Counted from the stretch's first letter, positions 1-62,290 are shown. The stretch: 64,000 nt of DNA from a virus (IMGVR_UViG_3300042946_001496), one strand, 5' to 3'. Notes: generated by a model from the sequence alone, not told the origin. A program made the numbers and translations.

Positions 1-1
1 T

Positions 2-175
2 GATAAATGCAAAGATTATTTTGATTTAGAAGAAATTTATTGGTGTCAAAACAAAGAATGCCAAGAGCAATACAGATGCACAAAATGTTGTTCTTTAGAT
101 GATATTTCCGCACAATGCCTTGAGCCAGCTTCAAAGTATTCAGAAAGTCATAAAGCCTCGATTTTAAAAAAATGA
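2..175 (+). CDS. Zn-ribbon LLDSF-family small protein, 5'-truncated by window edge
   Basis: In-frame Cys-rich C-terminal half (CxxC..CxxC..CC); its TGA overlaps the next ATG (ATGA). Confidence 0.4.
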   Translation, partial: DKCKDYFDLEEIYWCQNKECQEQYRCTKCCSLDDISAQCLEPASKYSESHKASILKK

Positions 176-387
176 GTCTACTTGATAGCTTTGATCGAAA
201 TAAAACTAAGTGTAAAAATTGCAAAAAGTATTTTGATGAACTCATTTTTGCTGACGAGGGTTACACCTATACTTTTTTTTATGATTGGTGTTTGGAATGT
301 CGCACAAGAGAAAATTCAAAAAAGATTTCTATTGTTTACAGAACAATAGGCGATATAATCAAAATCAATGAACAAAAATCTAATTGA
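172..387 (+). CDS. Zn-ribbon LLDSF-family small protein
   Basis: MSLLDSFDRNKTKCKNCKKYFD N-terminus with two CxxC pairs; first full copy of the tandem paralog array. Confidence 0.6.
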   Translation: MSLLDSFDRNKTKCKNCKKYFDELIFADEGYTYTFFYDWCLECRTRENSKKISIVYRTIGDIIKINEQKSN

Positions 388-541
388 CAGTTTTGATGAA
401 AACAAAGTAAAGTGTATAGAATGTAAAAAATATACAGAAAAAAACATGTATAATATCAAATATTGCAATGACTGTGTTAACAAAATCATGACAGAATGCT
501 TCGATAGATTAAAAATGCAACCCCCTTACAAATTTAAGTAA
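368..541 (+). CDS. Zn-ribbon LLDSF-family small protein
   Basis: MNKNLIDSFDENKVKCIECKKY; 57 aa so below the ORF-track cutoff; start overlaps the previous stop. Confidence 0.5.
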   Translation: MNKNLIDSFDENKVKCIECKKYTEKNMYNIKYCNDCVNKIMTECFDRLKMQPPYKFK

Positions 542-554
542 AAAAGGAAAAACA

Positions 555-1253
555 ATGAACATTTATCAAATTAGCAAAGATGTAAAATACTCAGATGAAG
601 TAGAGTTTGACTATAATGTCGTGCATGACTGCTCTGAACAAGGTTGTCATGATGAAGGAATATGCCGTTGTGGCAAGATAGAAGACATAGAAATCAAAAA
701 AGTCAATCGAACTGTTGTCGATAGTCTTGTCAAGAAGATCAAACTCAGGAAAAATGCAAAAGTCAAAGAGACGGAAGGGCAGTTCGTTTTAGAAGACGAA
801 CAGTTTTTCATGTATTGTGTTGACAGATTGTTTACAATTAACAAGCTTTACGATGGTGATGTTTGGAACATAGATGTGCGTGGAGGATATTATGGAGAAG
901 AAATTGACAACGTTTCTCCTCCGCTTTCTTTTTCAGATGACGTTACTAAAATAGCCAAATTAGATCCACAGCAAAGAATTAAATATGTTCTTACTAGAGA
1001 GTACGGTTACCTTCACGACAAACTAAAAGATAAATCTTTCGTAGAAAGAACAGTTTCTACAAAAGATTTAGTTGTTGGAAACGAATACAGAAAAACAGAC
1101 GGCAAACTTTATGAATGTTCAGAATACCATCTTCCAATAGGAATTTATCTGAAGGACGAAAATTCAGATAAGTATGTTCTTATGGATGGGTATAATAGAT
1201 TTTATGGAATTGTTCCAAACAATAAAACTGTTCAAATTATAAGTGCAGAATAG
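555..1253 (+). CDS. hypothetical protein (232 aa)
   Basis: Long ORF with AGGA-type RBS 8 nt upstream; CxC..CxxC cluster near the N-terminus. Confidence 0.55.
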   Translation: MNIYQISKDVKYSDEVEFDYNVVHDCSEQGCHDEGICRCGKIEDIEIKKVNRTVVDSLVKKIKLRKNAKVKETEGQFVLEDEQFFMYCVDRLFTINKLYDGDVWNIDVRGGYYGEEIDNVSPPLSFSDDVTKIAKLDPQQRIKYVLTREYGYLHDKLKDKSFVERTVSTKDLVVGNEYRKTDGKLYECSEYHLPIGIYLKDENSDKYVLMDGYNRFYGIVPNNKTVQIISAE

Positions 1254-1425
1254 ATGTAGATATTACATGAGAAAAGTAACATCAGATCCTTTATCGAATA
1301 GACAAAAAAGCAAACGAGCTGGACTAGGTTTAAGTTGGTGTCATGGATGCGATCGTAACCTTATAGGAGATGGAGAAAAGTGTAAAGTTTGCGGATATCA
1401 TCATAAACCTAAAAAAATTCGTTAA
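1243..1425 (+). CDS. small basic Cys-rich (zinc-ribbon-like) protein
   Basis: CHGCDRN...CKVCGYHH; overlaps the upstream gene by a few nt. Confidence 0.4.
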   Translation: MQNRCRYYMRKVTSDPLSNRQKSKRAGLGLSWCHGCDRNLIGDGEKCKVCGYHHKPKKIR

Positions 1426-1426
1426 A

Positions 1427-1645
1427 ATGACTAATTTGCACAAAAATCTCGATAGCTTTGATGAAAATAAAGTAAAATGTAGAGACTGTAAAAAATATAT
1501 TGAAAAAGATAGTGCTTCGCCTTTTGTTGATTTAGATAAAAATTTTAATGCTATAAAAGATTATTATCTATGTGGCATCTGTATTGGCGAAAGAATGAAA
1601 AATGGTGTACCAATCCAGCCGTTTGAGCCTCCATTTTTACAGTAA
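1427..1645 (+). CDS. Zn-ribbon LLDSF-family small protein
   Basis: Internal ATG gives MTNLHKNLDSFDENKVKCRDCKKY. Confidence 0.55.
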   Translation: MTNLHKNLDSFDENKVKCRDCKKYIEKDSASPFVDLDKNFNAIKDYYLCGICIGERMKNGVPIQPFEPPFLQ

Positions 1646-1648
1646 CTT

Positions 1649-1882
1649 ATGAATAATCTCGACAGTTTTGACGAAAATAAAAAGAAGTGTGTTTCTTGTC
1701 AAAAATATTTTAATAAAGAAGATTTTAGCACAGAAAAACATGCATTAACAGGAAGAACATTAGTGGCTACTGCTTGTCCATCTTGTGAAGCAAAATCTTG
1801 GGATGAGTTTTGTAAAAAAAATAAATTAAATCGACATCTGCGACCATATACTCCAAAAAAAATCAATAATGAGCAAGCTTGA
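1649..1882 (+). CDS. Zn-ribbon LLDSF-family small protein
   Basis: MNNLDSFDENKKKCVSCQKYFNK with a second CPSC pair. Confidence 0.6.
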   Translation: MNNLDSFDENKKKCVSCQKYFNKEDFSTEKHALTGRTLVATACPSCEAKSWDEFCKKNKLNRHLRPYTPKKINNEQA

Positions 1883-2066
1883 TAGTTTTGATAAAAGTAA
1901 AAAGAAGTGTCAATATTGTGGGAAATATTTTGACAAAAAAGAGCTTAAACGATCAGCATTCCACCAGACTTCACTTTGCCCTAGCTGCTGGAAAAGAGAA
2001 AATGATATGCTGGATAATATAGTTGGCAATGATGATGATTTCTTTAACGAGTATGAATATGAGTGA
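1869..2066 (+). CDS. Zn-ribbon LLDSF-family small protein
   Basis: MSKLDSFDKSKKKCQYCGKYFDK..CPSC; overlapping junction with the previous copy. Confidence 0.6.
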   Translation: MSKLDSFDKSKKKCQYCGKYFDKKELKRSAFHQTSLCPSCWKRENDMLDNIVGNDDDFFNEYEYE

Positions 2067-2232
2067 TCTAGACAGTTTTAATAACTGTAAAATTAAATGC
2101 AAATACTGTAAACATTATTTTGATGTAGCGATAATTAACAAAAACAATTTATGTGAAAAATGTCAAGAAAAAACAGATACAGAGTTCTTGGCTAGCATCA
2201 GGCATTTAATTGGTTTGCTGAAAAATGAATAA
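2059..2232 (+). CDS. Zn-ribbon LLDSF-family small protein
   Basis: MSDLDSFNNCKIKCKYCKHYFD..CEKC. Confidence 0.55.
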   Translation: MSDLDSFNNCKIKCKYCKHYFDVAIINKNNLCEKCQEKTDTEFLASIRHLIGLLKNE

Positions 2233-2428
2233 GCTAGATAGCTTTGATAACAGTAAAGTTAAATGCACTGGCTGTTCTACTTATTTAGACAAAAAAACAT
2301 TGGTTTTTAATGTATGTGATATTTGCCTTCAAAAGGAGCTTGTGTTATGCTTCGCTCCGCTAGTTGAAAATTTAGAAAAAGATTTCTCGGGATTGCCCTA
2401 CCTGTCCGAAGGAAAAAAATGTGAGTGA
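2225..2428 (+). CDS. Zn-ribbon LLDSF-family small protein
   Basis: MNKLDSFDNSKVKCTGCSTYLDK..CDIC. Confidence 0.6.
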   Translation: MNKLDSFDNSKVKCTGCSTYLDKKTLVFNVCDICLQKELVLCFAPLVENLEKDFSGLPYLSEGKKCE

Positions 2429-2633
2429 AGATAACCTCTTGAATAGTTTCAAAGTTTGTTATTGTCCTGATTGTTTTCCTCAAAAAATAATATTACAAAA
2501 AAGCAAACCTGACTCTATGTATCTTGAAGACCGTAAGTGGCATCGAGCCATAGAAAACGACTATATCTATGAGTGTCCAGGGTGTAAATTTCTGTTTCAC
2601 AAAAATGATGCATTAGAATATTCTAATGAGTAA
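2421..2633 (+). CDS. Zn-ribbon LLDSF-family small protein (divergent)
   Basis: MSEDNLLNSFKVCYCPDCF...CPGC. Confidence 0.5.
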   Translation: MSEDNLLNSFKVCYCPDCFPQKIILQKSKPDSMYLEDRKWHRAIENDYIYECPGCKFLFHKNDALEYSNE

Positions 2634-2755
2634 ATTTAACAAAAGTCTATTAGATAATATCCCATCTTTTTTTTTGCAATGAGACAGGAAAAGTTTATTC
2701 ATGTTCATGTTGCCTAACGTATTTTAGCGAAAAATTTCTTATTGAGAGGCAAAAA

Positions 2756-3034
2756 ATGAGCAATCTTGAAAGTTTTGATGAAAGTAAAAAAAAGTGTCAT
2801 GGTTGCAAAAAATACTTTGAGGAATCATCTATTGTTGGTCTTAACGGACAATACTTATGCACACCTTGTTTAAAAGAATCTCGGGTAGCTGTTCAGCAAT
2901 TCATCGATAAAAATTATTTCAGTAAGGAAACCAGCAATTTGAATCAAGCCATGGATGAATTTTTGACATTTATGGAAAAATATGTTGAAATTCAAAAGAA
3001 TTTAATAGAAGATTTTAAAAATGAGCAAACTTGA
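2756..3034 (+). CDS. Zn-ribbon LLDSF-family small protein
   Basis: MSNLESFDESKKKCHGCKKYFEE..CTPC; C-terminus KNEQT overlaps the next start. Confidence 0.6.
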   Translation: MSNLESFDESKKKCHGCKKYFEESSIVGLNGQYLCTPCLKESRVAVQQFIDKNYFSKETSNLNQAMDEFLTFMEKYVEIQKNLIEDFKNEQT

Positions 3035-3194
3035 CAGCTTTGATTACAATAAAAAGAAGTGCCCAAATTGTAAAAATTATTTTTACAAGAAGGAAAAATT
3101 TAAATATTTTATTGATTTCTTTAATAATAAGCGTTATTTTTGTCGAAAGTGCTGGCATGGTTTTGGAGTCTCTTTAATGAAACCATTTAAATAA
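3021..3194 (+). CDS. Zn-ribbon LLDSF-family small protein
   Basis: MSKLDSFDYNKKKCPNCKNYF..CRKC; 57 aa, not in the ORF track. Confidence 0.5.
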   Translation: MSKLDSFDYNKKKCPNCKNYFYKKEKFKYFIDFFNNKRYFCRKCWHGFGVSLMKPFK

Positions 3195-3406
3195 TGAACA
3201 ATCTTGATAGTTTCGACAATAATAAGATTAAATGTAAAGTGTGTGGCAAGTATTTTGATAAAGAAAGTATCTTTTATGATCTATCTAAGTATTGTGAAAA
3301 ATGCTGGCAAGACGTAGGCTTTGACAAAAGCGTCTCAGTGTTTAGACAAAGCGGAAAGTGTATGTTAAGCTGGAACATTCTGAATGCAAAAAATGAGCAA
3401 ACTTGA
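3194..3406 (+). CDS. Zn-ribbon LLDSF-family small protein
   Basis: MNNLDSFDNNKIKCKVCGKYFDK..CEKC. Confidence 0.6.
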   Translation: MNNLDSFDNNKIKCKVCGKYFDKESIFYDLSKYCEKCWQDVGFDKSVSVFRQSGKCMLSWNILNAKNEQT

Positions 3407-3566
3407 TAGTTTCGACAACAATAAAACTAAGTGTAAAAATTGCAAAAAGTATTTTGATAAAGAAAAATTTAAATATTTCGCTCTTTGTGTAAATTGTTGG
3501 GATAGTTTTGTGCGAAATCCGTCCACGTTCCTACAGAACTATTATGATGAAAAACAAAAAATTTAA
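3384..3566 (+). CDS. Zn-ribbon LLDSF-family small protein
   Basis: MSKLDSFDNNKTKCKNCKKYFDK..CVNC. Confidence 0.6.
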   Translation: MQKMSKLDSFDNNKTKCKNCKKYFDKEKFKYFALCVNCWDSFVRNPSTFLQNYYDEKQKI

Positions 3567-3637
3567 TCTATAATGAATCTTGGAAGAAAGGTGGACACCG
3601 ACACAGAAAGTTGGTAGACTGTTTTAGTTGAAATCGA

Positions 3638-3913: not shown

Positions 3914-3920
3914 TTTTTTT

Positions 3921-4406: not shown

Positions 4407-4424
4407 ACTTTTAGGAGAAATTAA

Positions 4425-4766: not shown

Positions 4767-4826
4767 ATGAATATATTGTTTTTCCTAAAAAATTAGCAGA
4801 AAAAATATTTCTTATGAAAACTTTCT

Positions 4827-10195: not shown

Positions 10196-10390
10196 ATGAA
10201 CAATAAAAATTTATTAACATCATTTGAAAAAAAATGTCCACTTTGCAAAAAAGGAAAATTAAAAGAAAACACGATCGAGAGAGTTCGAGTTGACGGATTA
10301 CTAACTGAGAGATATATTATCTTTAATTTTTGCGAAACATGTCCATACGCCTCCTACAAGGAGATTGAAAGTGTCCACAGCGAAAATTGA
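10196..10390 (+). CDS. Zn-ribbon LLDSF-family small protein (outlier copy)
   Basis: MNNKNLLTSFEKKCPLCKKG...CETCPY. Confidence 0.5.
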   Translation: MNNKNLLTSFEKKCPLCKKGKLKENTIERVRVDGLLTERYIIFNFCETCPYASYKEIESVHSEN

Positions 10391-10394: not shown

Positions 10395-10832
10395 ATGATA
10401 GATAAATTAAAAGAACTTGATAATAATACTTTTTCTTTAATTCAAGAAATAAATAATATTACTAAAGATATAAACCAGCGTGTAGACATTATATGGAGAA
10501 GTTTGTGCGATTTATCTGGTAGAAAAATAAATTGGTATAGTTTTAACAATGACTCTCCTCCATTCGATACAGGGGAAACCACTGGTGGTAGTTTTGATAT
10601 CAGAATACACAAAGACTTTATAAGCTTGGTTGGAGAATTTGACAAAATAGGACATGGTCATTTATATGATAACGGTTTCCCTACAGAATTTTTATATGAG
10701 TCTAACGAAAAATGGAACAAAAAAGTATTAGATGATCTTCAAAGAGTTAAAAAAGAAAAAGAAATACTCAATCAAATACAAAATAAACTATCTGCAGAAG
10801 AATGGGAGTATCTAAAAGATAGATTAAAATGA
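10395..10832 (+). CDS. hypothetical protein
   Basis: Start taken at the first ATG (MIDKLKEL); the ORF-track start is a TTG. Confidence 0.4.
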   Translation: MIDKLKELDNNTFSLIQEINNITKDINQRVDIIWRSLCDLSGRKINWYSFNNDSPPFDTGETTGGSFDIRIHKDFISLVGEFDKIGHGHLYDNGFPTEFLYESNEKWNKKVLDDLQRVKKEKEILNQIQNKLSAEEWEYLKDRLK

Positions 10833-11074
10833 ATCTTAAAGATATTGTAGAAATTTCTTACATTGCACAAACTATATGGGAAAGCTCTGGCTGTCCTTCA
10901 GAAGAAGATTCAACTATCTTAAAACAAGCAACATCTCAATATAAACTATTGAGTACATTTGAAGAAAACAAATCTGTATCTGGATCCGGTTTTGCGTGGT
11001 CGAATTATACTGTAGAAGATTTAGGCAAAATGATTAAAAGATGGTTTCCCTCAAAAAAGAACAAATTACAATAG
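10829..11074 (+). CDS. DUF2934-like protein (divergent)
   Basis: IVEISYIAQTIWESSGCPSEEDS..YKLLSTFEENK. Confidence 0.55.
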   Translation: MNLKDIVEISYIAQTIWESSGCPSEEDSTILKQATSQYKLLSTFEENKSVSGSGFAWSNYTVEDLGKMIKRWFPSKKNKLQ

Positions 11075-11113: not shown

Positions 11114-11293
11114 ATGATGACTTTTTATGAATATTTATCTATAAAAGATAAAATTGAAATATCAGAAATTGCACGGTTTTTTTGGCAAGAAGCAGGCTGT
11201 CCAGAAAACAAAGATTTAGATTTCTGGCTGCTTGCTGAAAAGAAGTATAAATTATTAAAAACATTCAGTAATAGTGCCATATTGAAAATTTAA
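11114..11293 (+). CDS. DUF2934-like protein
   Basis: GAGG RBS; ISEIARFFWQEAGCPENKDLDFWLLAEKKYKLLKTF; about 65 nt nearly identical to the 9928 gene. Confidence 0.55.
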   Translation: MMTFYEYLSIKDKIEISEIARFFWQEAGCPENKDLDFWLLAEKKYKLLKTFSNSAILKI

Positions 11294-11582: not shown

Positions 11583-11789
11583 ATGAATACCGATAATAAA
11601 GATAAATTATTTGATTCTTTTAAAAATGAAAATCTATACAAAAACGAAAATCTATACAAAAGAAAACTAAAAGCTATCTGGAGTGTTGAGACACATCAAG
11701 ATTTGCGTTCATTTTGTAATACCGAAGCAGAAGCTGAATTGTCTAAAATTTTATCAGAATTATTTCAAAGCTTAAAGGAAGAAACTTGA
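11583..11789 (+). CDS. hypothetical protein with KLFDSF N-terminus
   Basis: MNTDNKDKLFDSF; contains an 18-nt tandem duplication (NENLYK x2). Confidence 0.45.
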   Translation: MNTDNKDKLFDSFKNENLYKNENLYKRKLKAIWSVETHQDLRSFCNTEAEAELSKILSELFQSLKEET

Positions 11790-14689: not shown

Positions 14690-14928
14690 ATTGGTTTAAA
14701 AAGCCAGATCCTTTAACAAGCGAACCTGTAGTGGTTACTACTGTCAAGGGTGATAGTGTTCTTTATAGAATGGTCACAGAGGCAGATATTAGACAAGAAG
14801 CATATTTTCTATGGGAGAAAAATGGCAAAGTCGGTTCTAGTGAACGGTATTGGTATGAGGCTGAACAGAAAATAAGAAAAATTTTGCTAAATCAGAAAAA
14901 TGAACAAACCACTAAACAGTTTTCTTAA
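14686..14928 (+). CDS. DUF2934-like protein
   Basis: IRQEAYFLWEKNGKVGSSERYWYEAEQKIR; ends ..KNEQTTKQFS. Confidence 0.5.
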   Translation: MNWFKKPDPLTSEPVVVTTVKGDSVLYRMVTEADIRQEAYFLWEKNGKVGSSERYWYEAEQKIRKILLNQKNEQTTKQFS

Positions 14929-15214
14929 TCTTAAAAAGATTGATATTGTTTTAGAAATACACAACAAAGAAGATTGTTTTTTAGTAATTTGCATTAATGA
15001 TGAACTAATTTGCAAATTAAAAAAACCAGAGTTATTTGGAAGCACTCCAAACGATAGGGATCTTAGTGCCTACGAGTACTTAGTTGAAAACAACTATCTT
15101 CCTTATAGAGATCCTCTTTATCCTCTTTATCTTGAAGGTTATTGTAGAGATCATGATGTCAAATTTAGTAGTATTTCAAAAACTTACATCAAAGGATTTA
15201 AACACCAAAGATGA
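14900..15214 (+). CDS. hypothetical protein
   Basis: ORF. Confidence 0.45.
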   Translation: MNKPLNSFLNLKKIDIVLEIHNKEDCFLVICINDELICKLKKPELFGSTPNDRDLSAYEYLVENNYLPYRDPLYPLYLEGYCRDHDVKFSSISKTYIKGFKHQR

Positions 15215-20066: not shown

Positions 20067-20264
20067 ATGTATTTTGATATTTTTGCTTTGATTGCTTTCC
20101 TTAATCTTGGCTATATTACTTGGCTTTTTAAAAACAAAATTGATAATCTTGAACATCAAGTAAATAAACTCGATAAAGTTGTTCGCAAACTCAATGGTGA
20201 GAAAATTGAATCCAAAAATGGAGTTATGATCATAACTCAAGAAAATTTCATGGAGCCTTCATGA
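20067..20264 (+). CDS. small membrane protein
   Basis: Internal ATG with aaagga RBS; one TM helix. Confidence 0.4.
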   Translation: MYFDIFALIAFLNLGYITWLFKNKIDNLEHQVNKLDKVVRKLNGEKIESKNGVMIITQENFMEPS

Positions 20265-20695
20265 ATAACGAGGAAGATGCGTCCAAGATTGCTGAAATAA
20301 AAAGAACAGCAAAGCTTCTTGATACTTTTGATAAAAGAACCAATAAGTGGGTTGTTAGTATTAAAGGAAAAGTAGAATCACAAGACTTTGAAGTTAGCGT
20401 TCTTCGTGATGACAATAAACATGGAAAATTATCTTATGGTTGGTTTGGTGATAACAAACTATTGATCATTCAGCACGGTTGCGGTGCTTATGGAATTAGA
20501 ATTACCTCGCCTCTGATAAGAAAGATTGTATTGGATAAATCTGTTAAATTTGCACAAGAATTAGCAGATGAATTGAATTTTTCTGAACTTCACGGTAGTA
20601 TTGCAAATTCATGCAACAGTTTTTGTGGTGATCTTGAATGTAATATGAATCAAGAAATAAACCCAAACATCTGCAAAAGAATACGATCCAGATGA
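20261..20695 (+). CDS. hypothetical protein (paralog of the 20724 gene)
   Basis: VSVLRDDNKHGKLSYGWFGDNKLLII...VKFAQELADELN; contains AKLLDTFDKR. Confidence 0.5.
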   Translation: MNNEEDASKIAEIKRTAKLLDTFDKRTNKWVVSIKGKVESQDFEVSVLRDDNKHGKLSYGWFGDNKLLIIQHGCGAYGIRITSPLIRKIVLDKSVKFAQELADELNFSELHGSIANSCNSFCGDLECNMNQEINPNICKRIRSR

Positions 20696-26664: not shown

Positions 26665-27021
26665 ATGGCAAAATCATTTGAGCATTTAGTTAAAAAGACA
26701 GCAACCAAAAAGTCTAAAGCTACTGCTAAAAAAAGGACAAAAGAGCTTCTTGATACTTTTGACAAAAGAATCAAGACCTGCTCTTACATTGACAGCAGCG
26801 AATTGTTTAAAGATTGCGAAGAGGCATGGAATCTTTTTGTTGATTTTAGTAAGGATTGTAGTTGGGGAGATAACGATCTTAGTTTAATTGCTGCCAGCCT
26901 TATTGGTGATACTTTGGATAATAGTGATCCATCCACTAAAGAGGAAGAAAAGCAAATCAAAATTATCTTCAAAAGAATTGATGAACTTGGTTTAGATTTT
27001 TTTGTTAATTTGGAAAACTAA
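26665..27021 (+). CDS. hypothetical protein with ELLDTFDKR motif
   Basis: KKRTKELLDTFDKRIKTC. Confidence 0.5.
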   Translation: MAKSFEHLVKKTATKKSKATAKKRTKELLDTFDKRIKTCSYIDSSELFKDCEEAWNLFVDFSKDCSWGDNDLSLIAASLIGDTLDNSDPSTKEEEKQIKIIFKRIDELGLDFFVNLEN

Positions 27022-43070: not shown

Positions 43071-43331
43071 ATGCACACTCTTCGATTTAGTGCTTATTGT
43101 GGTATGGGTTGGAGTATTAAGTCTGGAACTCTTGATGAATGTAGAGTTGCTGCTGCTAAAATCCTGCGTAAGCGTAAGCGTGAAGGACACAATATTGTTA
43201 AATTGAAAGAAAACAAATGGGAGTGTCAGGAACCTGAAAATTGTATGATGGTTCCAGATACAGCAGGGGTTCTTGTTTTGGAAAACAACAATAAGGATGA
43301 TGATTATGAAGAAGAGTATAACGAAGAATAA
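43071..43331 (+). CDS. hypothetical protein
   Basis: ORF. Confidence 0.5.
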   Translation: MHTLRFSAYCGMGWSIKSGTLDECRVAAAKILRKRKREGHNIVKLKENKWECQEPENCMMVPDTAGVLVLENNNKDDDYEEEYNEE

Positions 43332-43632
43332 TCTTCTTGATACTTTCGTAGAAGTTGAAAGTATTTTTATTATTGGGCGAAGATGGTTTGAAAAAACCAA
43401 TGGAAATACTTATCATACATCCGAGATTTATGTGAATAATAATTTTGTTCACAAAATCAGCATGACCTATGGTTATGGACAACAATACTTGTGGACTGCT
43501 CTTAATTGGCTTAAGAACAATAAGTATTTAAGTTCAATCTCTGAAAAAGATAACCCTTCAATTTTTTGTCGAGAAAACAACATTAAGTTAAATCACACTG
43601 TTGCTGATGTTGGTAGAAAAAAAGATTTGTAA
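43306..43632 (+). CDS. hypothetical protein with NNLLDTF motif
   Basis: MKKSITKNNLLDTFVEVE. Confidence 0.4.
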   Translation: MKKSITKNNLLDTFVEVESIFIIGRRWFEKTNGNTYHTSEIYVNNNFVHKISMTYGYGQQYLWTALNWLKNNKYLSSISEKDNPSIFCRENNIKLNHTVADVGRKKDL

Positions 43633-52317: not shown

Positions 52318-53046
52318 ATGGAATATAAAAATATTTTTAGACACAGAGGGCAGTCTTACGATCTAGCCATGAGGAACTATCCTGATGCTAGAAACGAAGA
52401 ATTTTATCAACTATTTGATAGATATCCAATTAAAAACAAAGAGACCATATTAGACATACCATCTCTTGGCGGGTATTTAAAAAAATATTGTCCAGAAGAC
52501 AGTACTGTATTATCATTAGATTTTTCTGAATCTATTAATAGTATAGCGGTAGTATCTCCTTATGAAAAATGGCCAACCCCCAAACTTGATAGAATAGTAT
52601 GCCTTGCATCAATTCATCATGTGCAAAAATTAGATTTATTTTTAGATAATATTGCATTGCACACGAAAGACAAAGGATTAATTCATTTAGCAGATGTCTC
52701 ACTTGGTAGTAATATTTCGTTTTTTTTAGACGAATTCGTTGGTAAGTACACCTCAACAGGTGAACACAAAGGACTTTACTATGATTGGAATGTGGTTAAA
52801 TTTCCCAAAGACTTGTCTATATTAAATATTTCCGACATATCGTGTCCTTGGATATTTAATTCAAAAAACGACATGATCAATTATTCTAGACTATTGTTTG
52901 ATTTACAGAATATTACTGATGGTGAGATATTGAGTGGATTAGAAAAATATATAGGGTACAAAAAAGAGGCTAATAGTTCTGTGTTTTTGAATTGGCATTT
53001 AACATATATTGATCTTGAGTATAATTTAAATGAAAAACCTACTTGA
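52318..53046 (+). CDS. hypothetical protein (possible Rossmann-like fold; weak)
   Basis: ORF; its C-terminus NEKPT-stop overlaps an LLDSF-family start. Confidence 0.5.
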   Translation: MEYKNIFRHRGQSYDLAMRNYPDARNEEFYQLFDRYPIKNKETILDIPSLGGYLKKYCPEDSTVLSLDFSESINSIAVVSPYEKWPTPKLDRIVCLASIHHVQKLDLFLDNIALHTKDKGLIHLADVSLGSNISFFLDEFVGKYTSTGEHKGLYYDWNVVKFPKDLSILNISDISCPWIFNSKNDMINYSRLLFDLQNITDGEILSGLEKYIGYKKEANSSVFLNWHLTYIDLEYNLNEKPT

Positions 53047-53101
53047 TAGTTTTGTAGACTTAAAATGTCCATGGTGTCCTTCTGTTAAGCTAGAACGTTG
53101 A
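53030..53101 (+). pseudogene. truncated Zn-ribbon LLDSF-family remnant (23 aa)
   Basis: MKNLLDSFVDLKCPWCPSVKLER-stop. Confidence 0.3.
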
Positions 53102-56728: not shown

Positions 56729-56956
56729 TTGACTAACATTAATTCTAAACTTAAAATGAATGAAACTAAAAAAGATCTACTTGACAAATTCGTTTCTTAC
56801 AATTGCCCATATTGTAAGAACATTTTAATCAAAGAGTCTAAAGAAAATTGGCGTACGTTTGATATTGAATCAGGTGAAGAAACTTTTTTTGGAGTTTATG
56901 GTTGCAAAAAGTGTGGATCTTACTTTAGTGGAAAAGTGTTATATGAATGCAAATAA
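56729..56956 (+). CDS. Zn-ribbon LLDSF-family small protein (array 2)
   Basis: KKDLLDKFVSYNCPYCKN...CKKCG; the start may be the internal Met at 56756. Confidence 0.5.
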   Translation: MTNINSKLKMNETKKDLLDKFVSYNCPYCKNILIKESKENWRTFDIESGEETFFGVYGCKKCGSYFSGKVLYECK

Positions 56957-57185
56957 AAAAAAATTGCTTGAAAGCTTTTTGGACCATAAATGTCCTTGGC
57001 ATAACAAAGAATTAGATGATAATAGTAAAATTTTATTTTGTAACGTTGTCGTAACAACTGGACAGTATTGTTGTGGAATTTGGGATAATCACAGAGTAAA
57101 CACTATTCTTGGCAGAATAAAGATTCAAGGATCTGCTTACAAAAGACTTTTAAAAATAAAAGAATACTATGAAAAACTCGCTTGA
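56943..57185 (+). CDS. Zn-ribbon LLDSF-family small protein
   Basis: MNANKKKLLESFLDHKCPWHN..; ends KEYYEKLA. Confidence 0.55.
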   Translation: MNANKKKLLESFLDHKCPWHNKELDDNSKILFCNVVVTTGQYCCGIWDNHRVNTILGRIKIQGSAYKRLLKIKEYYEKLA

Positions 57186-57402
57186 TAGTTTCACAAAACA
57201 TTTTTGCCCTAAATGTTATGAAGAAACTTATGCTCAGCTAAATCCTTCTAACGGAAATAAAATAAGGATTTGTTTGAATAATAATTGTGAAGATCTAGCC
57301 AGAGTTTACACAAAAAATTCAAACTCTCAAGTTTATGTTCACACTCATTCTGTCCCGCCCCATATTGTGCCAGAGCTAAAAAGATTGAAAGATGAACAAT
57401 AA
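57169..57402 (+). CDS. Zn-ribbon LLDSF-family small protein
   Basis: MKNSLDSFTKHFCPKCYE...CLNNNC. Confidence 0.55.
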   Translation: MKNSLDSFTKHFCPKCYEETYAQLNPSNGNKIRICLNNNCEDLARVYTKNSNSQVYVHTHSVPPHIVPELKRLKDEQ

Positions 57403-57712
57403 AAAATTGCTTGAGACTTTTGAAACAGTTTACTACTGTGGATTTTGTTCTGCGTCAATATTCCCGACAAAAACTATAGCAACATTAATTACTGATAAAG
57501 ATTTAATAAAAAAGTGTGACAAATACTGTGTTCCTTCATCAAAAGATTTAGAAAAGCTTCAAGAATCTTTTGATATTACTGAACAGCATGAAAGATTTTA
57601 TTGTAGTTTTTGTGGTAGTTATTCTGCGGTTAACTTGGAATCAAAAAGTATTCACTATATTACAAAGTCTTACAGTTTGTGGCGGTCGCTAAACGAAGGC
57701 TATGAAACATAA
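57392..57712 (+). CDS. Zn-ribbon LLDSF-family small protein
   Basis: MNNKKLLETFETVYYCGFCS...CSFCG. Confidence 0.55.
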   Translation: MNNKKLLETFETVYYCGFCSASIFPTKTIATLITDKDLIKKCDKYCVPSSKDLEKLQESFDITEQHERFYCSFCGSYSAVNLESKSIHYITKSYSLWRSLNEGYET

Positions 57713-57748
57713 ATTGCTTGAAAACTTTGTTAGTTGTTATTTATAAAA

Positions 57749-57850: not shown

Positions 57851-57979
57851 ATTATATTAAAACTATAGGTGAAGAAAAGTTAGAAGAAATATTAGGCATG
57901 GATCGATCGTGGGATACACGCCCTGAATTTGAAAATTATAGTTTAGTTGATGATATTATCAAAAATTATATTGCGTAAT

Positions 57980-58210
57980 ATGAACAGAAAAAAACTGCTA
58001 AGTAGTTTTATTGAATACTGCTGTCCTTTTTCACACTGTGGTGAAAAACTAACCTTTTCAAAAGATATTTTTTATTGTAAAAAACATAAATCATGGGATC
58101 TTGATAATACTGTCTTTTTTTTACACCTTCATCCTAACCCCTCTTACTTAAATAGAGAAAGATTAATTAAACTAAAAGAATACTATGAGTCAGAAATTAG
58201 CTCGCCGTGA
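57980..58210 (+). CDS. Zn-ribbon LLDSF-family small protein
   Basis: MNRKKLLSSFIEYCCPFSHCGEK..; ends LKEYYESE. Confidence 0.5.
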   Translation: MNRKKLLSSFIEYCCPFSHCGEKLTFSKDIFYCKKHKSWDLDNTVFFLHLHPNPSYLNRERLIKLKEYYESEISSP

Positions 58211-58283
58211 GCGAGTAATAAGTAGGTCTAAATCTTATTGAAGAGCTTTTTTAAATTACTTATTTTCATTCATATATAAAAAC

Positions 58284-58928: not shown

Positions 58929-58955
58929 AAGTAAGTATGAGCGATCGAAATCTAA

Positions 58956-59201
58956 ATGATAAAAAAATTATTAGACACTTTTGTTGAAGAAAAGATTTTT
59001 TGTCCATCTAGATGTTATACTTGGGCAGAAACTCGTGATCACACTGGTCATTATCCGACAAAAGACATTTTTTTAAAAAAGATTACCTATATTGATGGTG
59101 TAATAATTTACAAGTGTCCAGGATGTGGTGGTAAATATTCTAAAGAGTTTCTTATTGCTTATGAAATTCATCATGACATAAAGCTTTTTTTGAAACCTTA
59201 A
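58956..59201 (+). CDS. Zn-ribbon LLDSF-family small protein
   Basis: MIKKLLDTFVEEKIFCPSRC...CPGCGG. Confidence 0.55.
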   Translation: MIKKLLDTFVEEKIFCPSRCYTWAETRDHTGHYPTKDIFLKKITYIDGVIIYKCPGCGGKYSKEFLIAYEIHHDIKLFLKP

Positions 59202-59202
59202 A

Positions 59203-59538
59203 ATGAACAAACTGCTTGATAGATTTTTAGGCTTAAAGTGTCCTACCTGTGGCAAGTCTCTAGAACTAAAAACTAAAAAAGAAATTTTACTTTTTACTGC
59301 ACTGTCACCGCCCGTTTACTCTTATCTTGAAAAATTAAACTTAGAAGATAAAGTGCCTGTTTGTTTAGATCACAAAAATAAGAGCGGAAAAGAAATTGGT
59401 ATGTGGGTTTGGACACCATTTTCTACATATGCTATTGAAAAAATGCATAAACAATGTCCATCTGGTTGGGTGCTTCATCCTAACGGAATTGAACCTTTAA
59501 ACAAACTAAAAGAATACTTCAATGAACAAACTGCTTGA
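59203..59538 (+). CDS. Zn-ribbon LLDSF-family small protein
   Basis: MNKLLDRFLGLKCPTCGKS...; ends LKEYFNEQTA. Confidence 0.55.
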   Translation: MNKLLDRFLGLKCPTCGKSLELKTKKEILLFTALSPPVYSYLEKLNLEDKVPVCLDHKNKSGKEIGMWVWTPFSTYAIEKMHKQCPSGWVLHPNGIEPLNKLKEYFNEQTA

Positions 59539-59641
59539 TAGATTTTTAGATTTAAAGTGTCCTACCTGTGGCAAGTCTCTAGAACTAAAAACTAAAAAAG
59601 AAATTTTACTTTTTTTGTTCCACCTAATATTACCGGGTCGC
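59522..59641 (+). pseudogene. truncated duplicate of the 59203 gene (first about 100 nt nearly identical), reading into inserted DNA
   Basis: MNKLLDRFLDLKCPTCGKSLELKTKKEILLF then unrelated sequence and a stop. Confidence 0.45.
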
Positions 59642-59708
59642 TAAGATGGCTAACAGAAAGCTAATTTTATGGATTACTATTCATATTGAAAAGAAGTGAA
59701 GATAACAA

Positions 59709-59933
59709 ATGATTCAAGTTTATTGTGACAATCCATTAAATGCCTCATTAGAATTTGTGAAGGGGCTGCCTTCTATGAGATCGTGCCGTCTTTGGTCACG
59801 GCGGGAGTATCCAGTCGTATCTGTTAAAGTGTTTATTTCCAACAATTTTAATTTCGTCAACAAAAAAGAAGCTCAGCTACATGAAGTGTCCGATGTTGTA
59901 ATTCAGTTCAATTTGATAGAGACCTGTCATTAA
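59709..59933 (+). CDS. hypothetical protein inside the inserted segment
   Basis: ORF; GC-richer DNA. Confidence 0.3.
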   Translation: MIQVYCDNPLNASLEFVKGLPSMRSCRLWSRREYPVVSVKVFISNNFNFVNKKEAQLHEVSDVVIQFNLIETCH

Positions 59934-59980
59934 CTTGATGTGCCCGAATTTTTTGCTATACTTAGATAAGGAGAAAAATA

Positions 59981-60268
59981 ATGACCACTAAACAAAGAAT
60001 TCAAAATATCAAAAGAGAAATTGAATGGTATGGTGTTCGTAAAACTATTGCTGAGGCTATGGTTGAATGTGGCAAATTAGGATTTGAATTTTCTGGTCAT
60101 GGAGCAGGGTTTGGTGGTGAAGACTTTAATTTAGTAGATAATAAAAAAAACCTTTACATAAATTTTTGTGACAAGGGTAGAAGTTGCGAAGTTATGATAT
60201 GCGAAAATGAAATCGCCGTATTTATAGGAACGATTGGAAAGGCAATGAAGTTTCTACATAATTCATAA
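59981..60268 (+). CDS. hypothetical protein inside the inserted segment
   Basis: AAGGAG RBS; MTTKQRIQNIKREIEWYG.. Confidence 0.4.
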   Translation: MTTKQRIQNIKREIEWYGVRKTIAEAMVECGKLGFEFSGHGAGFGGEDFNLVDNKKNLYINFCDKGRSCEVMICENEIAVFIGTIGKAMKFLHNS

Positions 60269-60394
60269 TATCCATCGCCAAATAAAATTAAGAATGGTAC
60301 AAATGCCAGACAAAAAGCATACTATTGTAACGGCTATTAAAAAGCATCCAGAAATAACAAATTGTGATTGAATTTGGGTTCTTCTTTTATATTC

Positions 60395-60477
60395 TCTATA
60401 CGCTAAATAAGACCCGATTTCTACCTTAAAAAACTATCTGAACTAAAAGAATACTTCAATGAACAAACTGCTTGATA
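60395..60477 (+). pseudogene. C-terminal remnant of a Zn-ribbon LLDSF-family gene (...DFYLKKLSELKEYFNEQTA-stop)
   Basis: Matches the C-terminus of the 60736 and 59203 paralogs; no upstream body. Confidence 0.4.
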
Positions 60478-60698
60478 GTTTCTTAGATTTAAAGTGTCCT
60501 TGGCATGACACAAAAATAAGCATACAAAATGAAACTTTATTTTGTATGAAATGTGATGCGGAAACCCTCTCTGGAAATTGGAATATTAATAGAATTAATA
60601 CTCTTTTAGCCGCCACCGAATCTGTTTGGAGAAATAGAATTGAACGTTTAAAAAAACTAAAAGAATACTATAAAAAACAAGAACAAACTACTTTATAG
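60459..60698 (+). CDS. Zn-ribbon LLDSF-family small protein
   Basis: MNKLLDSFLDLKCPWHDTKIS..CMKCD; ends LKEYYKKQEQTTL. Confidence 0.55.
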   Translation: MNKLLDSFLDLKCPWHDTKISIQNETLFCMKCDAETLSGNWNINRINTLLAATESVWRNRIERLKKLKEYYKKQEQTTL

Positions 60699-60699
60699 T

Positions 60700-60927
60700 T
60701 TTTTAGATTTAAAGTGTCCTATTCATGGTTGTAAATTGAAACCGTTAGAAGGAAGTTTATTTTGTCCAACTGAAATAATACTAAAGCTCCATCCAGACGA
60801 AATTTTTTGTGGAAATTGGAATCTTGAAAGAATTGAAAACGTTTTGAGCCTCAACGGATCATATATATCCGATTTCTACCTTAAAAAACTAAATGAACTA
60901 AAAGAATACTTTAATGAACAGAAATAA
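60700..60927 (+). CDS. Zn-ribbon LLDSF-family paralog lacking an ATG (junction ATG mutated to AAG); TTG-initiated or pseudogene
   Basis: ..KLLYSFLDLKCPIHGCKLKPLEGSLFCP..; ends LKEYFNEQK. Confidence 0.35.
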   Translation, partial: FLDLKCPIHGCKLKPLEGSLFCPTEIILKLHPDEIFCGNWNLERIENVLSLNGSYISDFYLKKLNELKEYFNEQK

Positions 60928-60999
60928 ACTATTTGATAGTTTTGTTGAACGAAAACGTTTTGTTGTAGGATATGATCAAAATGGAAATTTAATTTTTAA

Positions 61000-61212
61000 A
61001 TGAAAAAATCTAACAAAGAACTGCTAGACAGCTTTAAAGTTTATTATTGTCCTAATTCTGGAAGATCCTACCCAGTAAACAACCACCCTAAAACAAAATT
61101 AATTAAAACCTTGTTTCAAAATAAATTTAATTATACTTGGTACGAAGGTTACGAGTGTCCAATTTGTCTTTGGCACTGGCTGGAGCATGAATTAAATGAA
61201 CAAACTAAGTAG
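61000..61212 (+). CDS. Zn-ribbon LLDSF-family small protein
   Basis: MKKSNKELLDSFKVYYCPNSG...CPICLWHW; preceded by a 29-aa remnant (60914-61003). Confidence 0.55.
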   Translation: MKKSNKELLDSFKVYYCPNSGRSYPVNNHPKTKLIKTLFQNKFNYTWYEGYECPICLWHWLEHELNEQTK

Positions 61213-61423
61213 TTTTATAGAAAAAAAATGTCCTTGGCACAATCTTCAATTAACAGGACCAGACTTAAGTTGTGAAAAGTGTGGATTCTGGACGAATGAA
61301 AGAGTCAATAGTTTATCCACCTGGCAAAACTATTTTTTATTTATTAAAAGTGCTATGCGCAATGTTGAAGACGGAAGTGAACTACGATTGCAATTACTTA
61401 AAGAATATTATGATGAACAATAA
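61196..61423 (+). CDS. Zn-ribbon LLDSF-family small protein
   Basis: MNKLSSFIEKKCPWHNLQ..CEKCG; ends LKEYYDEQ. Confidence 0.55.
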   Translation: MNKLSSFIEKKCPWHNLQLTGPDLSCEKCGFWTNERVNSLSTWQNYFLFIKSAMRNVEDGSELRLQLLKEYYDEQ

Positions 61424-61565
61424 AAACCAAAAACTGCTTGATTCTTTCGCCAAACCAGTGTGCAAATACTGTAATAAGGAATTGAATATTTACAAAGTCA
61501 TAATGCGTGGTATTTGTTTTAACGAAAAATGTAGCCATAGATTTAAACCTGTAAATATATCATAA
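61410..61565 (+). CDS. Zn-ribbon LLDSF-family small protein
   Basis: MMNNKNQKLLDSFAKPVCKYCNKE...NEKCSHRFK. Confidence 0.5.
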   Translation: MMNNKNQKLLDSFAKPVCKYCNKELNIYKVIMRGICFNEKCSHRFKPVNIS

Positions 61566-61622
61566 AAACTATATTCGAGAAATACGCACTAATTGTCACC
61601 GTTGGTATGGTGTCATGCAATC

Positions 61623-61856
61623 ATGAATCATTCTAACAAAAACTTATTAGATAGCTTCTCTTGGACCATTAACAATGGACAGCCTACAGATTATAAATAT
61701 ATTGAAGCCATGTCTCGCCAAGGACGTTGCTATTGCTGTGCCGTTACTCACCCCCGTCTTCTTGTGATTTTAGATAGAGATGACGATATAATTAAATACA
61801 GAGAAATTAGTATGAGAGATTATCTTAAATACCCTTTGCCCCAGCATGTAAAATGA
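61623..61856 (+). CDS. Zn-ribbon LLDSF-family small protein
   Basis: MNHSNKNLLDSFSWTINNGQ...CYCC. Confidence 0.5.
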   Translation: MNHSNKNLLDSFSWTINNGQPTDYKYIEAMSRQGRCYCCAVTHPRLLVILDRDDDIIKYREISMRDYLKYPLPQHVK

Positions 61857-62026
61857 ACGAATCTAACAAAAAACTCTTAGACAGCTTTGAAATTCCTGAA
61901 TGCTGCAGATGTGGCAGCACTTTGGTTAACCGTGTATCTACCAAGAATTTACAGCGAATTTACTATTGTCAGCCTTGCTCGTGTTACACTGTATATCCTG
62001 AAAACGAAACAAAACAAGCTTCTTAA
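61853..62026 (+). CDS. Zn-ribbon LLDSF-family small protein
   Basis: MNESNKKLLDSFEIPECCRCGS...CQPCSC; 57 aa. Confidence 0.5.
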   Translation: MNESNKKLLDSFEIPECCRCGSTLVNRVSTKNLQRIYYCQPCSCYTVYPENETKQAS

Positions 62027-62058
62027 TTAGATTTGAAAAATGAAATTATTATCAACAA

Positions 62059-62077
62059 TTTGGTGATACGCTAGGGT
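62059..62077 (+). promoter_or_regulatory. conserved GGTGATACGCTAGGGT promoter-like motif immediately abutting the start codon
   Basis: The motif's 3' half is replaced by the ATG; this would give a leaderless or very short-leader transcript. Confidence 0.4.
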
Positions 62078-62290
62078 ATGATGAACAAAAACACTAAAAA
62101 ACTACTTGACTCTTTCACTAAACCAATTTGCAAAAATTGTAATGAAGAATTAGAATTATTTGCCTTTTCTTTATCAGATGATTCAAAACCAATTAAAATC
62201 ATTGATGCCGCTGGTAATTTCGGAGGACGGTGTATTAACGAAAAATGTAGCCATAGATTTAAAACCGTTAGGATAGATAATTATCAGTGA
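62078..62290 (+). CDS. Zn-ribbon LLDSF-family small protein
   Basis: MMNKNTKKLLDSFTKPICKNCNEE...INEKCSHRFK; close paralog of the 61410 gene. Confidence 0.55.
   Translation: MMNKNTKKLLDSFTKPICKNCNEELELFAFSLSDDSKPIKIIDAAGNFGGRCINEKCSHRFKTVRIDNYQ

What the first reader, a model, noticed from the sequence alone, without database searches (positions are those of the whole stretch)
1..62290. Two tandem arrays totalling more than 30 copies of a small zinc-ribbon family with a conserved N-terminal LLDSF motif and a nucleotide-conserved overlapping stop/start junction
- **Array 1** (1-3566) holds about 13 copies.
- **Array 2** (52145-62290) holds about 20 copies, including remnants.
- Every copy is 55-110 aa and begins M(S/N)K(K)LLDSF(D)xxKxKC..C.KYF with a second CxxC pair.
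- Many copies end ..LKEYF/YNEQT(A).
- The stop of copy n and the start of copy n+1 overlap inside a DNA motif close to AATGARCAAACTKGATAGYTTTGA (for example KNEQT-stop over MSKLDSF).
- That motif is conserved at nucleotide level even where flanking genes are unrelated, for example at the end of the 52318 gene.

Such birth-and-death arrays of tiny metal-binding proteins in a phage accessory region are typical of host-takeover or anti-defence arsenals. The size and regularity here are exceptional, and the family looks undescribed.
Basis: seen in the sequence. Interest (0 to 1): 0.85.

Follow-up and report, generated by a model that had tools for sequence, protein, structure and literature searches.

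The report
Phage arrays of tagged zinc-finger genes
An uncultured freshwater phage carries over 30 tiny zinc-finger genes chained head to tail, each starting with the same short 'LDSF' peptide, which also labels unrelated small proteins; the family is real and undescribed, but its function is unknown.

Summary
The window holds 12 copies at 172-3566, one at 10196-10390, and 14 intact plus 6 decayed copies at 53030-62290. Another 12 kb upstream holds at least 6 more.

The genes are coding. Orthologue dN/dS is 0.27-0.88, and the motif L[DE][ST]F occurs 27 times against 1.1 expected.

Four corrections:
- **Fold:** it looks like a treble-clef C4 finger, not a zinc ribbon, at low model confidence.
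- **Motif scope:** KxKCxxCxKYF holds only for array 1.
- **NEQT(A) tails:** they are the -1 frame reading of the next gene's ATGAACAAACT(GCT)TGA, so the "DNA motif" is dual coding plus recent duplication.
- **LDSF peptide:** it is a portable tag, also found on non-zinc proteins.

No Pfam, PHROG, NCBIfam or PADLOC family matches. An exhaustive HMM search finds 117 cluster representatives, apparently all from metagenomes. One 7.7-kb contig has 25 tandem copies, and all 24 junctions overlap.

Relatives carry a T4-type terminase fragment.

Best reading: a diversifying effector family that grows by unequal recombination, is translationally chained, and shares a docking tag. Function and partner are inferred, not shown.

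The parts
1..175 (+). 3' end of upstream gene (154 aa, P0010), an in-frame fusion of two family copies
172..387 (+). A1, 71 aa, MSLLDSFDRNKTKCKNC
368..541 (+). A2, 57 aa, MNKNLIDSFDENKVKC; 20-nt overlap with A1
1427..1645 (+). A3, 72 aa (an upstream ATG at 1370 is also possible)
   Evidence: orthologue dN/dS 0.29
1649..1882 (+). A4, 77 aa, ends NNEQA
1869..2066 (+). A5, 65 aa; 14-nt overlap, A4 stop inside its Leu-Asp codons
2053..2232 (+). A6, 59 aa
2225..2428 (+). A7, 67 aa
2421..2633 (+). A8, 70 aa, GTG start, array-2-like head (LLNSFKVCYCPDC)
2756..3034 (+). A9, 92 aa, ends EDFKNEQT
3021..3194 (+). A10, 57 aa; 14-nt overlap
   Evidence: dN/dS 0.27
3194..3406 (+). A11, 70 aa, the copy that was modelled
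3393..3566 (+). A12, 57 aa; 14-nt overlap
10196..10390 (+). M1, isolated copy, 64 aa, MNNKNLLTSFEKKCPLC
53030..53101 (+). B0, 23-codon truncated copy overlapping the end of the 52318-53046 gene by 17 nt
56756..56956 (+). B1, 66 aa
56943..57185 (+). B2, 80 aa, CPWH head, IKEYYEKLA tail
57169..57402 (+). B3, 77 aa; 17-nt overlap
57392..57712 (+). B4, 106 aa
57749..57850 (+). B5, 33-codon truncated copy
57980..58210 (+). B6, 76 aa, LKEYY tail
58956..59201 (+). B7, 81 aa
59203..59538 (+). B8, 111 aa, ends LKEYFNEQTA
59522..59644 (+). B9, 40-codon remnant; its first 94 nt are 98% identical to the start of B8
   Evidence: D2
60407..60475 (+). C-terminal remnant (..DFYLKKLSELKEYFNEQTA*) of a decayed copy, overlapping the B10 start
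   Evidence: (D6)
60459..60698 (+). B10, 79 aa
60670..60927 (+). B11, full-length copy with ATG mutated to ATA and LLYSF in the tag; probable pseudogene
60914..61003 (+). B12, 29-codon remnant (MNRNKLFDSF..)
61000..61212 (+). B13, 70 aa, ends NEQTK
61196..61423 (+). B14, 75 aa, LKEYYDEQ tail; 17-nt overlap
61410..61565 (+). B15, 51 aa, paralogue of B18
61623..61856 (+). B16, 77 aa, tag present but no Cys pair next to it
61853..62026 (+). B17, 57 aa
62078..62290 (+). B18, 70 aa
8689..8835 (+). non-zinc ORF with the tag near its C-terminus (KLLNTFLNERILTEDTGPR); conserved in L007
9928..10188 (+). DUF2934 protein followed by the tag (KYKLLQTFENNK)
10829..11074 (+). DUF2934-like paralogue followed by the tag (KLLSTFEENK)
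11114..11293 (+). DUF2934 paralogue followed by KLLKTF
11583..11789 (+). 68-aa ORF: N-terminal KLFDSF tag plus a Gp23 capsid-protein fragment
14900..15214 (+). non-zinc ORF starting MNKPLNSF
20261..20695 (+). non-zinc ORF with KLLDTFDKR at residue 20
26665..27021 (+). non-zinc ORF with ELLDTFDKR at residue 29
43297..43632 (+). non-zinc ORF starting MMIMKKSITKNNLLDTF

Best explanation
This is a lineage-specific, rapidly diversifying multigene family of small (about 55-110 aa) four-ligand zinc-finger proteins. It sits in the accessory arm of an uncultured freshwater tailed phage.

**Shown**
- The ORFs are genuine coding genes.
- Copies are born, truncated and interrupted within the arrays.
- Neighbouring genes are chained by short overlaps. 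The upstream stop usually lies inside the first codons of the next gene.

**Inferred**
- Arrays grow and shrink by unequal or illegitimate recombination between the conserved gene heads and tails.
- The overlaps couple translation along the chain.
- The head's coding sequence closes both other reading frames, so any newly formed junction still ends the upstream gene cleanly.
- The N-terminal L(L)DSF peptide is a portable docking tag, not part of the finger. It brings many different variable bodies to one common, still unknown partner.
- That makes the set an arsenal of early or accessory effectors for host takeover or counter-defence.
For: **Coding and selection**
- The motif is strongly enriched.
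- Window copies compared with their orthologues in L007 give dN/dS of 0.27, 0.29, 0.37 and 0.88.
- The tag varies by synonymous and conservative changes.

**One family**
- Arrays 1 and 2 align profile to profile with 91% probability over the tag plus both Cys pairs.

**Fold**
- AF2 gives a beta-hairpin knuckle plus CxxC at a helix start. pLDDT is 70-85 in the core, and the tag is coil with low confidence.

**Birth and death**
- In-frame double copies also occur.

**Chaining**
- 18 of 32 junctions overlap in the window.
- 24 of 24 overlap in the 25-copy array of L012, and the frame advances by +1 at 21 of those junctions.
- In L012 the Leu codon is CTT in 24 of 25 copies, while the Asp, Phe and Asn third positions vary. 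The conserved T is the one that makes the upstream TGA.
- In the window Leu is CTN in 24 of 29 copies, against 52% genome-wide.
- All 31 starts scored read RTGA, against 54% of other genes. Both other frames are closed within 12 codons in 31 of 31 copies, against 71 of 111 other genes.

**Portable tag**
- The same peptide heads or follows unrelated non-zinc ORFs, including three DUF2934 proteins. These cases are conserved between the window phage and L007.

**Lineage trait**
- 117 cluster representatives have the same head, and many end in NEQT-type tails.
- Arrays also occur in L007/L043, L012 and L014.

**Accessory context:**
Against: - No experiment or homology ties any copy to a function or partner.
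- Expression timing is unknown. Promoter scans are uninformative.
- Paralogues share ancestry, so the codon statistics are not independent tests. AGY serine and CTT leucine may partly be inherited.
- Off-frame stops are common in a 32% GC genome.
- The models have low overall confidence (pLDDT 56-60), so the fold class and the 'disordered tag' are tentative.
- Tags that sit in the middle of DUF2934 proteins could be recombination scars rather than functional motifs.
Confidence: 0.45

Rival explanations
1. The LDSF peptide is a capsid-targeting signal like the T4 internal-protein CTS. The small proteins would be loaded into the prohead and injected with the DNA as counter-defence factors.
For: [quoted passage not shown] That is the same logic of one N-terminal peptide on divergent small proteins.
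- A relative contig encodes a T4 gp17-type terminase fragment.
- A Gp23 fragment carries the tag.
Against: - No conserved hydrophobic-x-Glu cleavage site follows the tag.
- In several proteins the tag is internal or near the C-terminus.
- A different N-terminal motif (MNFYEF.., MKTFNKW..) on larger ORFs, including an ART-like one, looks more like T4's MKTYQEFIAE, which I recall from memory.
- No head genes were available to check.
Confidence: 0.12
2. The tag is a sliding-clamp-binding peptide, for a phage gp45-like clamp or the host beta clamp. It would tether or block the clamp with many zinc-finger adaptors.
For: - T4-family clamp-binding motifs are short hydrophobic and acidic peptides that are interchangeable between proteins (PMC2988020; PMC7892883).
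- A Tevenvirinae DNA polymerase ends ..KKASLFDMFDF. That resembles KKLLDSFDE and KLFDSF in L-[LF]-D-x-F-D and in the preceding lysines.
- Clamps are the classic hub for one motif on many proteins.
Against: - T4 motifs are C-terminal, whereas these are mostly N-terminal.
- The tag fits only about 3 of 5 positions of the bacterial QL[SD]LF motif (recalled from memory).
- The closest cultured terminase relative, Flavobacterium phage immuto, has a family A polymerase and DnaB in its first 50 kb, and I found no T4-type clamp there. That stretch shows no tag enrichment either.
- No polymerase, gp33 or gp55 of this lineage could be retrieved.
Confidence: 0.13
3. The tag has no protein-level role. It persists because its DNA serves as the recombination handle and the start/stop coupling cassette of a selfishly expanding gene array.
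For: - The head's DNA closes both other frames and provides the overlapped stop.
- Junction segments are near-identical between some copies.
- Internal tags could be recombination scars.
Against: - The amino-acid motif is kept through synonymous codon changes: CTT/CTA/TTA, GAT/GAC, AGY/TCN, TTT/TTC.
- It is kept in non-array genes that have no overlapping neighbour, and at internal positions conserved between phages.
Confidence: 0.15
4. The conserved junction is a non-coding repeat or regulatory element, and the small ORFs are not real genes.
For: - Sigma-70-like hexamers are modestly enriched in 1-5000 (36 against 22.7 +/- 4.8), partly because CTTGAYAG resembles TTGACA.
Against: - dN/dS is below 1.
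- The Cys ligands are invariant.
- 117 homologous protein clusters exist.
- There are no Rfam matches.
- Third-codon positions vary freely.
Confidence: 0.03

Closest known systems
T4 internal proteins (IPI, IPII, IPIII and polymorphic Ip genes) with their capsid-targeting sequence
   Same: - Many small, fast-evolving, otherwise unrelated phage proteins share one short N-terminal peptide.
- They sit in a plastic locus, in a phage with T4-type packaging genes.
- The known role of IPI* is counter-defence (PMC3012670).
   Different: - The peptide sequence differs.
- No protease site follows the tag.
- The tag also occurs internally.
- Most bearers here are homologous zinc fingers in long overlapping tandem arrays.
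- Virion location is untested.
Hyperplastic regions of T4-type phages, with promoter-early stem-loop (PeSL) cassettes (recalled from memory, not read here)
   Same: - Blocks of small accessory ORFs of unknown function.
- Gene gain, loss and shuffling mediated by short conserved sequences at cassette borders.
   Different: - Here the conserved border is coding: tail of gene n plus head of gene n+1.
- Genes overlap instead of being separated by promoter and stem-loop.
- No repeated promoter or terminator unit was found.
Sliding-clamp-binding motifs (T4 SCBM; PIP box; bacterial QL[SD]LF)
   Same: - A short hydrophobic and acidic peptide, portable between unrelated proteins.
- It resembles ..KKASLFDMFDF.
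   Different: - Mostly N-terminal, not C-terminal.
- The partner is untested.
- Whether this lineage has a clamp is unknown.
Small phage zinc-binding proteins such as Lar-like restriction-alleviation proteins (phrog_5558) and FCS/TRASH-type treble clefs
   Same: - Similar size, two CxxC pairs, and phage accessory context.
- One copy hits phrog_5558 at E = 0.002.
- FCS fingers are among the structural near-misses.
   Different: - No match is significant or reproducible across copies.
- None of those families has the LDSF head or tandem arrays.

Membership tests
Zinc ribbon (fold class) | Two zinc knuckles, each on a beta-hairpin | tested here: inconclusive
   AF2 puts the first CxxC on a hairpin (E11-13, E20-22) and the second at the start of helix 35-41, which is treble-clef-like. 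Mean pLDDT is only 56-60.
Zinc ribbon (fold class) | Four metal ligands in two pairs | tested here: met
   C14, C17, C34 and C37 are invariant in 113 sequences. Array 2 has CxxC or CxxH plus CxxC.
Curated protein families (Pfam, PHROGs, NCBIfam, PADLOC) | Score above the family threshold | tested here: not met
   No hit reaches a cutoff. The best are E = 0.002-0.1 to assorted zinc fingers.
T4 internal proteins / CTS | N-terminal consensus close to MKTYQEFIAE (from memory) | tested here: not met
   The tag is M(x)NK(L)LDSF. Other window ORFs fit the T4 pattern better.
T4 internal proteins / CTS | Prohead-protease site (Leu/Ile-x-Glu) after the signal | tested here: not met
   Residues after the tag vary (DEN, DNN, NKD, LDL).
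T4 internal proteins / CTS | Protein present in the virion and injected | not testable with these tools
   Needs virion proteomics.
T4 internal proteins / CTS | T4-type head assembly genes in the same genome | tested here: inconclusive
   Only a gp17-type terminase fragment in the relative L007 and a Gp23 fragment in the window. No head genes lie in the available DNA.
Sliding-clamp-binding motif | Short hydrophobic and acidic peptide shared by several proteins | tested here: met
   L-[LF]-[DE]-[ST]-F-[DE] occurs on more than 40 proteins. Compare ..SLFDMFDF.
Sliding-clamp-binding motif | Same peptide on the phage's own polymerase or clamp partners; a clamp gene present | not tested
   Core replication genes are not in the window.
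Sliding-clamp-binding motif | C-terminal position on a linker (T4 type) | tested here: not met
   The tag is N-terminal in most bearers.
PeSL-type hyperplastic region | Each small ORF flanked by an early promoter and a stem-loop | tested here: not met
   Genes overlap or abut. No repeated promoter/terminator unit was found.

The most novel reading that the evidence does not exclude
L(L)DSF is a phage-encoded 'address label'. It would be a portable peptide marking 40 or more proteins per genome, of several unrelated folds, for one shared machine. Candidates are a clamp, the packaging or ejection apparatus, a protease, or a phage compartment. The zinc-finger arrays would then be a combinatorial library of cargo or adaptors, built by a self-terminating, translationally coupled cassette architecture.
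Probability: 0.3. Interest if true: 0.8.

Novelty: new variant of a known kind. Interest (0 to 1): 0.6.

Why it matters
- **New family:** it would add an undescribed, highly expanded protein family to the poorly charted accessory genomes of large freshwater phages.
- **Gene-array architecture:** genes overlap by 14 or 17 nt, the reading frame rotates by +1 at each junction, and each gene head closes both other frames. This gives a clean natural system for studying translational coupling and array expansion.
- **Portable tag:** a tag shared by unrelated proteins points to a single hub that could be found with one pull-down. If that hub is a host or phage core machine, the arrays become a library of natural modulators.

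Tried and rejected
**Searches that found nothing useful**
- Near and distant DNA searches, and tblastn, against 50,697 phage records.
- IMG/VR and GTDB scans with the family profile.
- IMG/VR DNA-pattern scans found only an unrelated membrane protein and chance-level hits.
- The metagenome scan gave only short contigs.

**Structure and RNA comparisons**
- Foldseek against the PDB gave no hit at E <= 0.001.
- The profile search of PDB sequences gave only spurious matches spanning two C2H2 fingers.
- Rfam gave no matches.

**Promoter motifs**
- The T4 late-promoter motif TATAAATA and a Bacteroidota-type promoter pattern are both at chance level.

**Dead ends**
- Programmed frameshifting into poly-finger proteins was considered and dropped. 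The junction (ACU-UGA) offers no re-pairing for a +1 slip. This is reasoning only.
- No copy-number differences between strains were seen. L016 and L001 are 99.96-100% identical to the window.

Full report
**1. What is in the sequence**

All genes in the two regions are on the + strand. GC content is about 32% and there are no tRNAs. I located every in-frame L(L)[DE..][ST]F motif and fixed the start codons.

- Array 1 holds 12 copies between 172 and 3566. It is interrupted by an unrelated 232-aa gene (555-1253) and a small CxxC ORF (1243-1425).
- Bases 1-175 are the end of an upstream 154-aa gene that is an in-frame fusion of two copies.
- One copy sits alone at 10196-10390.
- Array 2 proper runs 56756-62290. 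It has 14 intact copies and 5 decayed ones:
  - three truncated ORFs of 29-40 codons;
  - a full-length copy whose ATG is now ATA (60670-60927);
  - a C-terminal stump (60407-60475).
- A 23-codon stump follows the unrelated 52318-53046 gene.

The motif is far beyond chance. L[DE][ST]F occurs 27 times against 1.1 in shuffles, and 20 times against 0.24 in the first 25 residues.

**2. One family, two flavours**

- Array 1 aligns as M-x-x-LDSFDxxKxKCxxCxKYFDK...CxxC, with nine invariant positions.
- Array 2 shares only M..KKLLDSF-x4-CP-x-C/H and a second Cys pair. A sub-group ends in LKEY[YF].
- Profile-to-profile comparison links the two at 91% probability (E = 1e-6) over 39 columns.
- The proteins are mildly basic, with median pI 8.4 against 6.6 for all window ORFs.

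**3. They are real genes**

- Four window copies compared with their orthologues in a related contig (L007) give dN/dS of 0.27, 0.29, 0.37 and 0.88.
- Motif codons vary synonymously.
- There are no Rfam matches.

**4. Fold**

- AF2 with a 20-sequence alignment, and again with a 113-sequence alignment, gave mean pLDDT 56 and 60.
- Residues 11-41 are the confident part, at 65-85.
- The model has a beta-hairpin carrying the first CxxC, and the second CxxC at the start of a helix.
- The tag is coil with low confidence.
- This looks treble-clef-like rather than a classical zinc ribbon, but the models are weak.
- Foldseek found nothing at E <= 0.001. The nearest matches were uS14, FCS, PHD and ZZ fingers.
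- A profile search of PDB sequences gave only artefactual matches across two C2H2 fingers.

**5. The junction**

The NEQT and NEQTA tails are simply the upstream frame reading the next gene's start:

- A|ATG|AAC|AAA|CTT|GA reads as AAT-GAA-CAA-ACT-TGA.
- With LL in the tag it reads ...ACT-GCT-TGA.

In the window, 18 of 32 starts are overlapped by the upstream ORF, by 14 nt in 7 cases and 17 nt in 4. In 8 cases the stop lies in the Leu-Asp(-Ser) codons.

Leu is CTN in 24 of 29 copies against 52% genome-wide. Ser is AGY in 23 of 26 against 46%. The Asp and Phe third positions match genome usage.

The 25-copy array in L012 is clearer:

- Leu is CTT in 24 of 25 copies.
- Asp is GAC 18 / GAT 6, Phe is TTC 16 / TTT 9, and Asn is AAT 12 / AAC 13.
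- So the one conserved silent site near the start is the T that creates the upstream TGA.
- A downstream Asp-Lys pair (GAT-AAA) is also invariant, which I attribute to recent common ancestry.
- All 24 junctions there overlap (14 nt in 11, 17 in 4, 11 in 4, 8 in 2, 4 in 3), and 21 shift the frame by +1.

All 31 window starts scored read RTGA, against 54% of other genes. Both other frames are closed within 12 codons in 31 of 31 copies, against 71 of 111 other genes.

So the 'conserved DNA motif' is protein conservation, plus dual coding, plus selection for or inheritance of the overlapped stop, plus recent duplication. Examples of the last are 94 nt at 98% identity and 52 nt at 94%. Paralogues are not independent, so the p-values are upper bounds on significance.

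**6. The tag is portable**

The same peptide, often extended to K-L-L-x-[ST]-F-[DE]-x-[NK]-K, occurs on ORFs with no zinc site:

- After the DUF2934 domain in 9928-10188, 10829-11074 and 11114-11293.
- Near the end of 8689-8835.
- At or near the start of 11583-11789, 14900-15214, 20261-20695, 26665-27021 and 43297-43632.

Several such proteins are conserved with their tag between this phage and L007. One example is MK(N/K)QKNKESLD(T/S)FSDV.... The spacing from the tag to the first Cys varies from 3 to 6 residues. The tag therefore behaves as a separate module.

**7. Distribution**

- A single-sequence search found only the query itself.
- Word-indexed profile searches found 20 and 13 proteins, nearly all from this lineage.
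- The exhaustive HMM search found 117 cluster representatives at E <= 1e-3. Almost all are 50-110 aa with the match starting at residues 1-6, and many end in ..NEQT..WCNNEQT or ..FLNEQ. Chained arrays are therefore widespread in the group.

Contexts:

- L012 is 7.7 kb with 25 tandem copies, next to a Kyano_Gp96-family gene.
- L007/L043 is one 48.8-kb contig. It is syntenic with the window (PcfJ, AAA, DUF2934), has two arrays, and holds an in-frame fusion to a longer domain.
- L014 is from a 41-kb contig with about 10 copies.
- L016 is 100% identical to window 1-3502. It adds 12 kb upstream with at least 6 more zinc copies and 3 tagged non-zinc ORFs.
- L016 comes from IMG metagenome 3300002835, the 'ME' lake metagenome of PMC6344600. 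My recollection is that this is Lake Mendota.

The family is absent from the INPHARED phage records, from IMG/VR and from the GTDB representatives at the sensitivity used.

**8. What phage**

- The other 111 window ORFs show only accessory domains: DUF2934, PcfJ, UvdE, ferritin, AAA, metallophosphatase, an ART-PolyVal-like protein, and HTH.
- One ORF (8840-9472) has homologues in jumbo phages.
- L007 ends in a T4 gp17-type terminase fragment. It is closest to a 595-kb uncultured phage (37% identity) and to Flavobacterium phage immuto (33.5%).
- Immuto itself has a family A polymerase in its first 50 kb, and that stretch shows no tag enrichment.
- Start regions are A-rich without clear Shine-Dalgarno sequences.

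**9. Mechanism**

Shown:
- The genes are coding.
- Copies turn over within the arrays.
- Genes are chained by overlaps.
- The tag is portable.

Inferred:
- Arrays expand by unequal recombination at the conserved heads and tails.
- Translation is coupled along the chain.
- The tag docks on a common partner.
- The variable bodies act as effectors.

The T4 internal-protein CTS is the nearest precedent in logic (PMC3012670). However, no cleavage site follows the tag, the tag is not always N-terminal, and another N-terminal motif in the window looks more CTS-like.

The tag resembles the T4-family clamp-binding end ..KKASLFDMFDF. Its position differs, and the replication genes of this lineage are unknown. 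Both remain rivals.

**10. Verdict**

This is a real, undescribed, lineage-restricted family with an unusual gene-chain architecture and a portable tag. Its function is unproven. I class it as a new variant of a known kind: plastic accessory arrays of small phage proteins that share a terminal peptide.

Noticed in passing
window 30873, 37410, 39236, 53151, 54595, 58284, 62349, 11114 (ORF starts): A second shared N-terminal motif, M(x)[NKE]F[YHKN][EKQN][FLYW]..(L/I).E, sits on larger and otherwise unrelated ORFs, including an ART-PolyVal-like protein (MKTFNKWLENL). It resembles the T4 capsid-targeting sequence MKTYQEFIAE, which I recall from memory.
   Followed up: partly
window 11583-11789: A 68-aa ORF joins the KLFDSF tag to a fragment matching the T4 Gp23 major capsid protein (PF07068, E = 1e-5, profile positions 148-180).
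   Followed up: no
window 59615-60413: Two unrelated ORFs (59709-59933 and 59981-60268) appear to have been inserted into a family copy. That left its head (B9) and its tail (60407-60475) on either side.
   Followed up: partly
window 16787-17218, 21110-21358, 23082-23339, 43751-44059: Four paralogous small HTH proteins with GcrA/HTH_28/HTH_1-like hits are scattered through the window.
   Followed up: no
window 34207-35105: This stretch, with the window's lowest GC (27%) and negative GC skew, holds two long minus-strand ORFs with no overlapping plus-strand call, and they may be minus-strand genes. No Pfam hit for the one tested.
   Followed up: no
L007 1-970; L014 5450-6628: Related phage contigs carry a TnpB/IS605 OrfB gene on the opposite strand inside the accessory region. 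The window has none at the syntenic place.
   Followed up: no
L012 array (2882-7660) and L043 110-2322: These copies also share a C-terminal acidic-aromatic motif just before the overlap ([FW]-[ED]-D-W-C-N-N-EQT or ..DFLNEQ). In one variant, TGGTG lies 5 nt upstream of the next ATG and could serve as a weak ribosome-binding site.
   Followed up: partly
window 26665-27021: This tagged ORF also ends ..ELGLDFFVNLEN, a second hydrophobic and acidic peptide at its C-terminus.
   Followed up: no
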